Program-made: the position numbers and the translations under genes
In this document: piece by piece, positions 22,297 to 27,255 of the stretch
How the letters are laid out: the number at the start of each line of letters is the position of its first letter
Numbering within the stretch: the stretch's first letter is position 1
DNA from: Eledone cirrhosa
Taxonomy: Eukaryota
Reading direction: 5' to 3'
Assembly (NCBI GenBank): GCA_964016885.1
Contig: CAXHJY010000585.1
Coordinates: 1-64,000 of the forward strand
DNA: 64,000 bases
Notes under the pieces: generated by a model
What the model saw: the letters and a program-made list of their open reading frames with translations, nothing else
The model's database searches: none
Told to the model about the DNA's origin: nothing

Positions 22297-22299
<3 letters not shown>

Positions 22300-25200
22300 A
22301 GTATAGACATAGAATATTCGAAAATATTCTGTATGTTTATAATAAACATTTTGAAGACCTAATCGCTATAGAATAGAATACGTCACGTATTACAATTAGA
22401 TTCTCGATAAAAGCAAGGGAAGTAATCTACGCGTTTCATTCTTGTTAGAATTCATCAGGACCACATATCCAGTGCTTTTATCGAGAATGACACAGCTAGA
22501 GACTTATAGAATACTTAGCTGTGTACTGGAACTGGTTTGAAAGAGCGGTTGCCGGTCCGGCAGAAATTAGAAATTGGAATAAATGCTCTGAAATAGCGAT
22601 ATATATGTGAGTATAGACATAGAATATTCGAAAATATTCTGTATGTTTATAATAAACATTTTGAAGACCTAATCGCTATAGAATAGAATACGTCACGTAT
22701 TACAATTAGATTCTCGATAAAAGCAAGGGAAGTAATCTACGCGTTTCATTCTTGTTAGAATTCATCAGGACCACATATCCAGTGCTTTTATCGAGAATGA
22801 CACAGCTAGAGACTTATAGAATACTTAGCTGTGTACTGGAACTGGTTTGAAAGAGCGGTTGCCGGTCCGGCAGAAATTAGAAATTGGAATAAATGCTCTG
22901 AAATAGCGATATATATGTGAGTATAGACATAGAATATTCGAAAATATTCTGTATGTTTATAATAAACATTTTGAAGACCTAATCGCTATAGAATAGAATA
23001 CGTCACGTATTACAATTAGATTCTCGATAAAAGCAAGGGAAGTAATCTACGCGTTTCATTCTTGTTAGAATTCATCAGGACCACATATCCAGTGCTTTTA
23101 TCGAGAATGACACAGCTAGAGACTTATAGAATACTTAGCTGTGTACTGGAACTGGTTTGAAAGAGCGGTTGCCGGTCCGGCAGAAATTAGAAATTGGAAT
23201 AAATGCTCTGAAATAGCGATATATATGTGAGTATAGACATAGAATATTCGAAAATATTCTGTATGTTTATAATAAACATTTTGAAGACCTAATCGCTATA
23301 GAATAGAATACGTCACGTATTACAATTAGATTCTCGATAAAAGCAAGGGAAGTAATCTACGCGTTTCATTCTTGTTAGAATTCATCAGGAGCACATATCC
23401 AGTGCTTTTATCGAGAATGACACAGCTAGAGACTTATAGAATACTTAGCTGTGTACTGGAACTGGTTTGAAAGAGCGGTTGCCGGTCCGGCAGAAATTAG
23501 AAATTGGAATAAATGCTCTGAAATAGCGATATATATGTGAGTATAGACATAGAATATTCGAAAATATTCTGTATGTTTATAATAAACATTTTGAAGACCT
23601 AATCGCTATAGAATAGAATACGTCACGTATTACAATTAGATTCTCGATAAAAGCAAGGGAAGTAATCTACGCGTTTCATTCTTGTTAGAATTCATCAGGA
23701 CCACATATCCAGTGCTTTTATCGAGAATGACACAGCTAGAGACTTATAGAATACTTAGCTGTGTACTGGAACTGGTTTGAAAGAGCGGTTGCCGGTCCGG
23801 CAGAAATTAGAAATTGGAATAAATGCTCTGAAATAGCGATATATATGTGAGTATAGACATAGAATATTCGAAAATATTCTGTATGTTTATAATAAACATT
23901 TTGAAGACCTAATCGCTATAGAATAGAATACGTCACGTATTACAATTAGATTCTCGATAAAAGCAAGGGAAGTAATCTACGCGTTTCATTCTTGTTAGAA
24001 TTCATCAGGACCACATATCCAGTGCTTTTATCGAGAATGACACAGCTAGAGACTTATAGAATACTTAGCTGTGTACTGGAACTGGTTTGAAAGAGCGGTT
24101 GCCGGTCCGGCAGAAATTAGAAATTGGAATAAATGCTCTGAAATAGCGATATATATGTGAGTATAGACATAGAATATTCGAAAATATTCTGTATGTTTAT
24201 AATAAACATTTTGAAGACCTAATCGCTATAGAATAGAATACGTCACGTATTACAATTAGATTCTCGATAAAAGCAAGGGAAGTAATCTACGCGTTTCATT
24301 CTTGTTAGAATTCATCAGGACCACATATCCAGTGCTTTTATCGAGAATGACACAGCTAGAGACTTATAGAATACTTAGCTGTGTACTGGAACTGGTTTGA
24401 AAGAGCGGTTGCCGGTCCGGCAGAAATTAGAAATTGGAATAAATGCTCTGAAATAGCGATATATATGTGAGTATAGACATAGAATATTCGAAAATATTCT
24501 GTATGTTTATAATAAACATTTTGAAGACCTAATCGCTATAGAATAGAATACGTCACGTATTACAATTAGATTCTCGATAAAAGCAAGGGAAGTAATCTAC
24601 GCGTTTCATTCTTGTTAGAATTCATCAGGACCACATATCCAGTGCTTTTATCGAGAATGACACAGCTAGAGACTTATAGAATACTTAGCTGTGTACTGGA
24701 ACTGGTTTGAAAGAGCGGTTGCCGGTCCGGCAGAAATTAGAAATTGGAATAAATGCTCTGAAATAGCGATATATATGTGAGTATAGACATAGAATATTCG
24801 AAAATATTCTGTATGTTTATAATAAACATTTTGAAGACCTAATCGCTATAGAATAGAATACGTCACGTATTACAATTAGATTCTCGATAAAAGCAAGGGA
24901 AGTAATCTACGCGTTTCATTCTTGTTAGAATTCATCAGGACCACATATCTATTCTATAGCGATTAGGTCTTCTATTCTATAGCGATTAGGTCTTCAAAAT
25001 GTTTATTATAAACATACAGAATATTTTCGAATATTCTATGTCTATACTCACATATATATCGCTATTTCAGAGCATTTATTCCAATTTCTAATTTCTGCCG
25101 GACCGGCAACCGCTCTTTCAAACCAGTTCCAGTACACAGCTAAGTATTCTATAAGTCTCTAGCTGTGTCATTCTCGATAAAAGCACTGGATATGTGGTCC

Positions 25201-27255
25201 TGATGAATTCTAACAAGAATGAAACGCGTAGATTACTTCCCTTGCTTTTATCGAGAATCTAATTGTAATACGTGACGTATTCTATTCTATAGCGATTAGG
25301 TCTTCAAAATGTTTATTATAAACATACAGAATATTTTCGAATATTCTATGTCTATACTCACATATATATCGCTATTTCAGAGCATTTATTCCAATTTCTA
25401 ATTTCTGCCGGACCGGCAACCGCTCTTTCAAACCAGTTCCAGTACACAGCTAAGTATTCTATAAGTCTCTAGCTGTGTCATTCTCGATAAAAGCACTGGA
25501 TATGTGGTCCTGATGAATTCTAACAAGAATGAAACGCGTAGATTACTTCCCTTGCTTTTATCGAGAATCTAATTGTAATACGTGACGTATTCTATTCTAT
25601 AGCGATTAGGTCTTCAAAATGTTTATTATAAACATACAGAATATTTTCGAATATTCTATGTCTATACTCACATATATATCGCTATTTCAGAGCATTTATT
25701 CCAATTTCTAATTTCTGCCGGACCGGCAACCGCTCTTTCAAACCAGTTCCAGTACACAGCTAAGTATTCTATAAGTCTCTAGCTGTGTCATTCTCGATAA
25801 AAGCACTGGATATGTGGTCCTGATGAATTCTAACAAGAATGAAACGCGTAGATTACTTCCCTTGCTTTTATCGAGAATCTAATTGTAATACGTGACGTAT
25901 TCTATTCTATAGCGATTAGGTCTTCAAAATGTTTATTATAAACATACAGAATATTTTCGAATATTCTATGTCTATACTCACATATATATCGCTATTTCAG
26001 AGCATTTATTCCAATTTCTAATTTCTGCCGGACCGGCAACCGCTCTTTCAAACCAGTTCCAGTACACAGCTAAGTATTCTATAAGTCTCTAGCTGTGTCA
26101 TTCTCGATAAAAGCACTGGATATGTGGTCCTGATGAATTCTAACAAGAATGAAACGCGTAGATTACTTCCCTTGCTTTTATCGAGAATCTAATTGTAATA
26201 CGTGACGTATTCTATTCTATAGCGATTAGGTCTTCAAAATGTTTATTATAAACATACAGAATATTTTCGAATATTCTATGTCTATACTCACATATATATC
26301 GCTATTTCAGAGCATTTATTCCAATTTCTAATTTCTGCCGGACCGGCAACCGCTCTTTCAAACCAGTTCCAGTACACAGCTAAGTATTCTATAAGTCTCT
26401 AGCTGTGTCATTCTCGATAAAAGCACTGGATATGTGGTCCTGATGAATTCTAACAAGAATGAAACGCGTAGATTACTTCCCTTGCTTTTATCGAGAATCT
26501 AATTGTAATACGTGACGTATTCTATTCTATAGCGATTAGGTCTTCAAAATGTTTATTATAAACATACAGAATATTTTCGAATATTCTATGTCTATACTCA
26601 CATATATATCGCTATTTCAGAGCATTTATTCCAATTTCTAATTTCTGCCGGACCGGCAACCGCTCTTTCAAACCAGTTCCAGTACACAGCTAAGTATTCT
26701 ATAAGTCTCTAGCTGTGTCATTCTCGATAAAAGCACTGGATATGTGGTCCTGATGAATTCTAACAAGAATGAAACGCGTAGATTACTTCCCTTGCTTTTA
26801 TCGAGAATCTAATTGTAATACGTGACGTATTCTATTCTATAGCGATTAGGTCTTCAAAATGTTTATTATAAACATACAGAATATTTTCGAATATTCTATG
26901 TCTATACTCACATATATATCGCTATTTCAGAGCATTTATTCCAATTTCTAATTTCTGCCGGACCGGCAACCGCTCTTTCAAACCAGTTCCAGTACACAGC
27001 TAAGTATTCTATAAGTCTCTAGCTGTGTCATTCTCGATAAAAGCACTGGATATGTGGTCCTGATGAATTCTAACAAGAATGAAACGCGTAGATTACTTCC
27101 CTTGCTTTTATCGAGAATCTAATTGTAATACGTGACGTATTCTATTCTATAGCGATTAGGTCTTCAAAATGTTTATTATAAACATACAGAATATTTTCGA
27201 ATATTCTATGTCTATACTCACATATATATCGCTATTTCAGAGCATTTATTCCAAT
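22297..27255. mobile_element. Retrozyme-like array 1: 310-bp hammerhead-containing unit, about 8.5 copies (-) then about 7.4 copies (+), head-to-head
   Basis: Exact 310-bp period (units start at 22297, 22607, 22917...). Inversion at about 24949. 16 hammerhead cores. Only one substitution noticed (23391). (TA)n at both ends. Confidence 0.9.
25170..25258 (+). ncRNA. Representative type I hammerhead of the 310-bp unit; predicted cleavage after GUA at 25230
   Basis: gtggtc CTGATGA attct aaca agaat GAAA cgcg TA gattac. Helix I continues past an internal loop with a perfect 16-bp stem ATTCTCGATAAAAGCA/TGCTTTTATCGAGAAT. Confidence 0.9.

What the first reader, a model, noticed from the sequence alone, without database searches (positions are those of the whole stretch)
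22297..27255. 310-bp tandem unit carrying a hammerhead ribozyme: candidate retrozyme / circular-RNA retroelement
Seen: 16 virtually identical hammerhead cores at 310-bp spacing. Each has an intact CUGAUGA/GAAA, a GUA cleavage triplet, a 5-bp helix II, a minimal palindromic helix III (CGCG) and a long helix I. The unit has no ORF. Established: metazoan non-LTR retrozymes are tandem monomers of a few hundred nt with type I hammerheads that self-cleave, circularise, and are thought to be mobilised by Penelope-like elements. Inference: this is a young family of that kind, inserted by rolling-circle reverse transcription of a 310-nt circle. I do not recognise this family as described, but cannot check that.
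Basis: partly seen in the sequence, partly recalled or inferred. Interest (0 to 1): 0.92.

Follow-up and report, generated by a model that had tools for sequence, protein, structure and literature searches.

The report
Retrozyme inserted by Penelope-type machinery
A 310-base self-cutting RNA repeat has been pasted more than a thousand times into TA microsatellites as back-to-back arrays whose ends carry the marks of Penelope-like retrotransposons, which supports from the genome alone how these small animal RNA circles are thought to spread.

Summary
Confirmed, with a correction. The 16 hammerhead cores are real, but they form two divergent arrays (9 on -, 7 on +), not one tandem. The 310-nt unit is a type I hammerhead retrozyme: 17,872 cores genome-wide, at least 1,237 insertions. 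Outer ends sit in (TA)n at two fixed internal sites (unit 130-139 and 165), one of each per insertion: 56 mixed outward pairs, 0 like-with-like. No (TA)n junction was found at the cleavage site. Inner joins are random and microhomology-rich. This is the Penelope-like element (PLE) footprint: inverted 5'-truncated copy, 'tail', microsatellite target, two adjacent reverse-transcription starts. Both arms share one haplotype (22 of 23 loci; 2.7 by shuffling), with 20 haplotypes over 51 loci, as expected if one monomeric circle is rolled. Older 320-nt relatives keep the same ends and a covarying ribozyme. Not shown: cleavage, expression, a circle, or which PLE supplies the enzyme; intact Hydra-type and Neptune-type PLEs are present but none sampled shares the end sequence. 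New member of a known kind, valuable as mechanistic evidence.

The parts
22289..24949 (-). Left arm, 8.58 units, 9 hammerheads; its 3' (outer) end is the 'short' end, unit position 139, running into (TA)n
24948..24972 (+). Inversion junction: 2-nt microhomology, then a 25-nt duplicated piece (unit 51-75)
24970..27255 (+). Right arm, 7.37 units, 7 hammerheads; its 3' (outer) end is the 'tail' end, unit position 165, running into (TA)n
25231..25540 (+). Reference 310-nt monomer, numbered from the cleavage site (predicted circle; MFE -66.8 kcal/mol, z -4.0 against 100 shuffles)
25170..25258 (+). One type I hammerhead with extended helix I; core 25200-25230, cleavage after 25230; helix III reduced to the palindrome ACGCGU (dimer type)
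25287..25375 (+). Conserved multi-hairpin junction (closing helix, single-stranded GUCUUC(A/U)AAAUG, three hairpins) holding the short end; candidate PLE-protein recognition element (inferred)
25370..25395 (+). 'Tail' (unit 140-165), the stretch between the two fixed 3' ends
22255..22296 (.). (TA)n target, left side
27253..27272 (.). (TA)n target, right side
43429..44753 (.). Second insertion of the family: minus arm 3.43 units from a long (TA)n, plus arm 0.85 unit ending atypically at unit 209; another haplotype (3 fixed differences)

Best explanation
A young, non-autonomous non-LTR retrozyme mobilised in trans by an endonuclease-bearing Penelope-like element. Proposed cycle: (1, inferred) arrays are transcribed; adjacent hammerheads pair through the ACGCGU palindrome and cut out 310-nt monomers, which are ligated into circles that a lone minimal hammerhead cannot easily reopen. 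(2, inferred from footprint) a PLE protein, probably a dimer, binds the conserved hairpin junction, nicks both strands of a (TA)n run and primes two cDNAs inside the RNA, one at unit 130-139 and one at 165. (3, inferred) each cDNA runs through the cleavage site for under one to about 15 or more turns and stops at random. (4, shown as a pattern) the two cDNA ends join through 1-5 nt of microhomology, which leaves two divergent arms with one short end and one tailed end. The longest arrays grow further by local exchange. Confidence: about 0.9 for a PLE-mobilised retrozyme, about 0.7 for a monomeric circle as template.
For: Architecture: in 20 loci picked by BLAST score and not by their ends, 17 have two divergent arms; 35 of 37 outer 3' ends fall at 121-139 (19) or 163-169 (16); 15 of 17 two-arm loci have one of each. 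In the first 38 tail-end loci on contig C1, 34 show an inverted short-ended arm, 2 run off the fetched DNA (their short ends appear 8.8 and 14.9 kb away), 1 hits a gap, 1 is single-armed. Genome-wide: 995 tail+(TA) and 1,237 short+(TA) junctions, reversed-pattern controls 0; 0 at the cleavage site and 0 at another TA-ending site. Among 76 tail and 100 short ends on C1:1-217.8 Mb, 56 outward pairs within 20 kb are all mixed. Inner 5' ends are uniform over the unit (p 0.67; 3 of 98 within 5 nt of the cleavage site, 3.2 expected); 26 of 49 joins have at least 2 nt overlap against 18% by chance. Haplotypes: 51 loci, 438 units, 20 fixed haplotypes, 13 fixed variants private to one locus, 1 non-fixed variant seen in two loci; arms agree in 22 of 23 loci, shuffled mean 2.7, maximum 9. 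Ribozyme: all 4 helix II pairs tested and the 3-8 core pair (C-G / U-A) change on both sides across three subfamilies. Literature: inverted 5'-truncated copy, 30-40-bp tail and (TA)n bias define PLE insertions (PMC8557442); a PLE protein cuts and extends both strands and starts at two adjacent internal sites bounding the tail (PMC11167929); such retrozymes give circles in coral, mussel and axolotl (PMC7229834). Intact Hydra-type and Neptune-type PLEs ending in (TA)n are abundant in this genome.
Against: No autonomous PLE sharing the end sequence was found: a profile search of 485 kb of masked loci, 30 older-family loci, 62 PLE-bearing loci and 7 long-ORF loci gave only further short relatives. 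In vitro, hammerhead cleavage was not needed for PAc insertion and unprocessed RNA was the main substrate. Exceptions to one-haplotype arrays: L122 switches haplotype within an arm; L113, L112 and L135 carry variants repeated in 2-4 units. Two of 37 outer ends are atypical (L035 at 115, window array B at 209). Covariation rests on only three subfamilies, so on few independent events. In the 2026 preprint only 1 of 9 Xenopus retrozyme dimers cleaved in vitro. No target-site duplication can be read inside (TA)n.
Confidence: 0.7

Rival explanations
1. Same PLE-driven twin priming, but the template is an uncleaved linear multimeric transcript of a homogeneous source array; the ribozyme matters for something else or only now and then.
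For: Hammerhead cleavage was dispensable for PAc in vitro. Very young sources carry few private variants, so copies would look homogeneous. L122 has two haplotypes in one arm.
Against: 13 private variants are fixed in every unit of their locus, for example two in all 16 units of L129, which needs frequent one-unit bottlenecks; only 1 non-fixed variant recurs at two loci. None of the 49 junction position pairs listed is repeated (read from the list). The ribozyme is kept by compensatory change across subfamilies.
Confidence: 0.2
2. The arrays are only amplified pLTR stumps of an autonomous PLE that was not sampled.
For: Xenopus retrozymes are homologous to PLE pLTRs. Sampling covered under 1 Mb of a 3.0-Gb genome.
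Against: Every arm examined is pure unit repeats from end to junction. Subfamilies A, B and C are all 310-325-nt units and none adjoins an ORF in a shared way.
Confidence: 0.04
3. A satellite or DNA rolling-circle element (local unequal crossing-over, extrachromosomal circles, Helitron-like) with no RNA step.
For: Arrays over 20 units show repeated variants that point to local exchange (L112, L113, L135). The 2026 preprint proposes local tandem expansion.
Against: Strand-specific fixed 3' ends, strict short/tail pairing, central inversion, (TA)n targeting and a covarying ribozyme are not explained.
Confidence: 0.04
4. The inversion is an assembly artefact (fold-back reads).
For: The window is an unplaced, repeat-rich contig; one sampled locus abuts a gap.
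Against: Arms are of unequal length, end at two different fixed sites, have unrelated flanks, and recur on large scaffolds in 49 analysed junctions.
Confidence: 0.01

Closest known systems
Metazoan non-LTR retrozymes (Cervera and de la Pena 2020, PMC7229834; axolotl Rtz331/Rtz353, mussel, coral)
   Same: 150-450-nt non-coding tandem unit, GC below 50%, type I hammerhead in each unit, weak palindromic helix III as in axolotl HHR_Amex1, self-paired predicted circle, co-existence with PLEs.
   Different: Circles and cleavage were shown there and not here. The parts read describe no central inversion, fixed internal ends, tail or (TA)n target; the 2020 review (PMC7761336, passages) says the repeats show no motif that points to the mobilising element.
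Li, Clavereau and Pollet 2026 preprint (10.64898/2026.07.22.740005): animal retrozymes as non-autonomous PLE derivatives
   Same: Same conclusion of PLE dependence; similar unit sizes.
   Different: Their evidence is co-occurrence and pLTR homology, and they suggest local tandem expansion. Here the evidence is the insertion footprint, arrays appear to be born as multimers, and no homologous autonomous pLTR was found.
Insertion architecture of EN+ Penelope-like elements (Craig et al. 2021, PMC8557442; Frangieh et al. 2024, PMC11167929)
   Same: Partial tandems, inverted 5'-truncated copy, tail at one end only, AT-rich or (TA)n target, two adjacent internal start sites downstream of the hammerhead cut.
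   Different: No ORF; 310-nt unit with many copies per arm; tail of 26-35 nt; canonical-type rather than helix-III-less ribozyme.
Non-autonomous Chlamys elements such as MRC1 (PMC8557442, passage)
   Same: Non-autonomous PLE dependants with pLTRs and multicopy head-to-tail insertions.
   Different: Algal, no canonical hammerhead in most Chlamys, and similar to their autonomous partners at the 3' end; no such partner was found here.

Membership tests
Type I hammerhead ribozyme | Core CUGANGA...GAAA...UH with helices I, II, III | tested here: met
   helix III only as a dimer
Type I hammerhead ribozyme | Score above an Rfam hammerhead gathering threshold | tested here: not met
   none at gathering; HH9 21.5 of 52 bits, E 0.011. 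Rfam also listed none of the window's other hammerhead-like motifs
Type I hammerhead ribozyme | Compensatory changes in helix II and the 3-8 pair | tested here: met
   4 of 4 helix II pairs and the 3-8 pair; three subfamilies only
Type I hammerhead ribozyme | Self-cleavage | not testable with these tools
   needs in vitro transcription
Non-LTR retrozyme | 150-450-bp tandem units each with a type I hammerhead, no ORF, no LTR/PBS/PPT, GC below 50% | tested here: met
   PBS and PPT not searched formally
Non-LTR retrozyme | Dispersed multi-locus family | tested here: met
   17,872 cores; 995 and 1,237 end junctions
Non-LTR retrozyme | Expressed as linear and circular monomer RNA | not testable with these tools
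   needs RNA from the organism; see Tried and rejected
Non-LTR retrozyme | Target-site duplication when present | tested here: inconclusive
   both ends lie in (TA)n; the 86%-identical flank repeat is older than the insertion
PLE-type insertion | Inverted 5'-truncated copy next to the main copy | tested here: met
   17 of 20 and 34 of 38 loci
PLE-type insertion | About 30-40-bp tail at one end only; two adjacent start sites | tested here: met
   56 mixed and 0 like-with-like outward pairs; tail 26-35 nt
PLE-type insertion | Microsatellite (TA)n target | tested here: met
PLE-type insertion | End sequence shared with an autonomous PLE | tested here: inconclusive
   none found in under 1 Mb sampled
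Autonomous PLE | RT plus GIY-YIG ORF | tested here: not met
   no ORF in the unit

The most novel reading that the evidence does not exclude
Each insertion is the record of one PLE dimer priming both target strands at two neighbouring sites of a single 310-nt RNA circle and rolling it many times in both cDNAs. The conserved hairpin junction is a portable PLE-recognition signal that no longer needs sequence likeness to its helper. The youngest subfamily gained its long arrays (median span between the two ends 2.4 kb, against 0.68 and 0.41 kb in relatives with a stable helix III) by shrinking helix III to a dimer-only palindrome that protects the circle. This would be genomic proof of rolling-circle TPRT on a circRNA and would explain the PLE tail and inversion as one event. 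The array-length link is confounded with age and with different locus selection.
Probability: 0.35. Interest if true: 0.8.

Novelty: new member of a known kind. Interest (0 to 1): 0.6.

Why it matters
Which enzyme mobilises animal retrozymes, whether the circle is the template, and how PLEs make their tail and inversion are open questions in the papers read. This family gives over a thousand near-identical, datable insertions with both priming sites mapped to the base, a short candidate recognition structure, and intact candidate helper ORFs in the same genome. That makes the model testable with one 310-nt RNA, a (TA)n oligonucleotide and a purified protein. The class itself and its proposed PLE link are published, so the surprise is moderate.

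Tried and rejected
Rfam at gathering threshold: no hammerhead. Sequencing runs: no RNA holder listed; all four runs laid were contigs of unknown kind, so nothing on expression follows. Three of them hold the unit as one 340-nt self-closing contig at depth 12-34, which a tandem DNA repeat gives as well. Helper search: the 830-aa Hydra-type PLE of the window shares only simple AT-rich matches with the unit; a loose-end sequence from run X1 has no exact match in G000; Pfam PF26215 is not in the library; Neptune-type 3' ends do not match; a 'GTCTTCAAA' word near the end of a second Hydra-type family was noticed by eye and not supported by the profile search. The 90-bp flank repeat was rejected as a target-site duplication (86% identical against near-100% in the array). 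A test for avoidance of core positions by fixed variants is too weak, and the monomer cutter anchors on unit 298-309, so it cannot see variants there. Rows dropped: one search kept 51 of 58 loci (at least 2 full units); one search kept 49 of 58; one search kept 23 of 38; one search left out L051 (a family A variant). Earlier notes on this genome or sequence: none. PMC8490949 passages added nothing. Supplements of PMC7229834 and of the 2026 preprint could not be read and may list this family or describe ends.

Full report
Observation. The 16 cores exist and the predicted cut after 25230 is right. The region is not one tandem: a minus-strand arm (22289-24949, 8.58 units) and a plus-strand arm (24970-27255, 7.37 units) meet at an inversion with a 25-nt duplicated piece, and both outer ends run into (TA)n. 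Numbering the unit from the cleavage site, the left arm ends at 139 and the right at 165. The unit has no ORF over 59 aa and folds more stably than shuffles as a circle (z -4.0). Rfam does not call it at threshold. Two copies cofold into a double hammerhead through the palindrome ACGCGU, the arrangement that PMC4209133 (passages) describes as allowing cleavage in multimers but not in monomeric circles.

Family. G000 (3.0 Gb) holds 17,872 cores of this family, 995 exact tail+(TA) junctions and 1,237 short-end+(TA) junctions; reversed-pattern controls were 0. From the overlap of the two lists I estimate about 1,700 insertions and 5.5 Mb (my arithmetic). Junctions with (TA)n at the cleavage site and at another TA-ending site number 0.

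Architecture. Of 20 loci chosen by BLAST score, 17 have two divergent arms, and 35 of 37 outer ends fall in two windows, 121-139 and 163-169. Of the first 38 tail-end loci on C1, 34 show the inverted short-ended arm, two more have it beyond the fetched DNA, one abuts a gap and one is single-armed. Among 176 listed ends on C1:1-217.8 Mb, all 56 outward-facing pairs within 20 kb are one tail plus one short end; median span 2.4 kb, maximum 14.9 kb. Inner ends are uniform along the unit and not enriched at the cleavage site (3 of 98); 26 of 49 joins overlap by 2 nt or more against 18% by chance, and one uses 16 nt of helix I. Craig et al. (PMC8557442; passages and section 11) list partial tandems, an inverted 5'-truncated copy, a 30-40-bp tail at one end and (TA)n bias as PLE traits. 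Frangieh et al. (PMC11167929; parts 1-2 of 4) show a PLE protein, predicted to be a dimer, cutting and extending both strands and starting at two adjacent internal sites that bound the tail. The match is close, so PLE-type twin priming is the best reading.

Template. In 51 loci with at least two full units (438 units) there are 20 fixed haplotypes, 13 fixed variants private to one locus, and 56 non-fixed variants of which one recurs at two loci. Both arms carry the same majority haplotype in 22 of 23 loci (shuffled mean 2.7). This is what a one-unit bottleneck gives, and with ends lying mid-unit and arms of up to about 15 or more units it favours a ligated monomer circle. Against it: L122 switches haplotype within an arm, three long arrays repeat variants in 2-4 units (local exchange after insertion is the simpler reading), and PAc used unprocessed RNA in vitro. 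An uncleaved multimer remains the main rival.

Relatives. Family B (319 nt, U3-A8 core, stable helix III; 140 pattern hits) and family C (about 325 nt; 816 hits) have the same two ends and inversions. Over 10 units from three subfamilies, helix II and the 3-8 pair covary (29 cells with change on both sides, 0 of 500 shuffles as high; relatedness inflates this). A hairpin junction just upstream of the ends is conserved with a few compensatory changes. B and C insertions are shorter (medians 0.68 and 0.41 kb).

Helper. The window's ORF at 48962-50827 is a 5'-truncated member of a very young family with intact 830-aa frames in 6.05-kb tandems (150 of 150 scored hits at 99-100%). It has RWR, DKT and CxCX5C, the Hydra hallmarks of PMC8557442. 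Several Neptune-type families (named from their CX2-5CxxC and CCHH-like motifs, read by eye) also end in (TA)n. None sampled shares the retrozyme's end sequence, so the helper is unidentified; under 1 Mb was examined.

Comparison and novelty. It meets the testable definition of a non-LTR retrozyme (PMC7229834; parts 2-4 of 6; supplement unreadable). PLE dependence was proposed there and argued by homology in the 2026 preprint (parts 1-3 of 5; supplements closed). The 2020 review notes no motif pointing to the helper (PMC7761336, passages). Searches (listings only, beyond the papers named) showed no description of this family or of a tail-and-inversion footprint on hammerhead retrozymes; subscription journals and Repbase/Dfam were not searchable. 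Earlier AI notes report similar PLE marks on ribozyme-free tandem units in other genomes (unchecked). Verdict: new member of a known kind, with unusually clean mechanistic evidence; interest 0.6.

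Noticed in passing
window 48962-50827 (+); G000:C2:170426500-170446300 (L099, L100): Very young Hydra-clade PLE: intact 830-aa ORF, 6.05-kb tandem unit with a 3.5-kb microsatellite-rich UTR and a hammerhead-like motif with a long insert in helix II (seen by eye). Longer than the under-3-kb Hydra elements described; 41,497 first-look candidates in the genome.
   Followed up: partly
window 7577-7626, 7804-7853, 7988-8042, 10186-10234, 36741-36790, 57531-57581, 60518-60567, 60881-60929, 61065-61113: Nine copies of another type I hammerhead-like family (TATTTTAT-CTGATGA...GAAATATGTATA-ATAAAATA) with long helix II, typical of PLE ends; none reaches an Rfam threshold.
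   Followed up: no
window 46345-46376 (-) and 46415-47908: Lone hammerhead with an AUGCAU palindrome next to a 68-bp tandem array of 21.9 copies.
   Followed up: no
window 9598-9628 (-); L035:1390-1962: Further hammerhead family (GAAACUAGUU palindrome), also present in L035.
   Followed up: no
L105:1645-4202; also L107, L115, L064, L193: A separate tandem family of about 490 bp with its own hammerhead core; probably another retrozyme, with weak profile likeness to the hairpin junction in L193 (E 4e-4).
   Followed up: no
L174:506-579: Distant relative of the hairpin junction (E 2e-4) ending near a (TA)n run.
   Followed up: partly
L101, L108, L132, L138, L114, L127, L133 (unit positions 1-3): Fixed insertions or substitutions cluster right after the cleavage site; could be ligation-junction errors or tolerated helix I variation.
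   Followed up: no
L113, L135, L112, L122: Repeated variants with period 7 (L113) or irregular spacing (L135, an array of about 48 units) and a haplotype switch inside one arm (L122).
   Followed up: partly
window 22154-22253 and 27271-27362: About 90-bp direct repeat, 86% identical, flanking the array; older than the insertion and not seen in other loci.
   Followed up: yes
window 18333-20039 (+): 568-aa frame with RVT_1 (E 1.5e-33) and DUF6451, a LINE-type fragment.
   Followed up: no
window 8917-8980 (-): tRNA-like Rfam hit (29.9 bits), likely the head of a tRNA-derived SINE.
   Followed up: no
runs X4, X5, X6: Runs labelled as three other organisms hold the majority haplotype as a single 340-nt self-closing contig at low depth; kind of run unknown, could be carry-over DNA.
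   Followed up: partly
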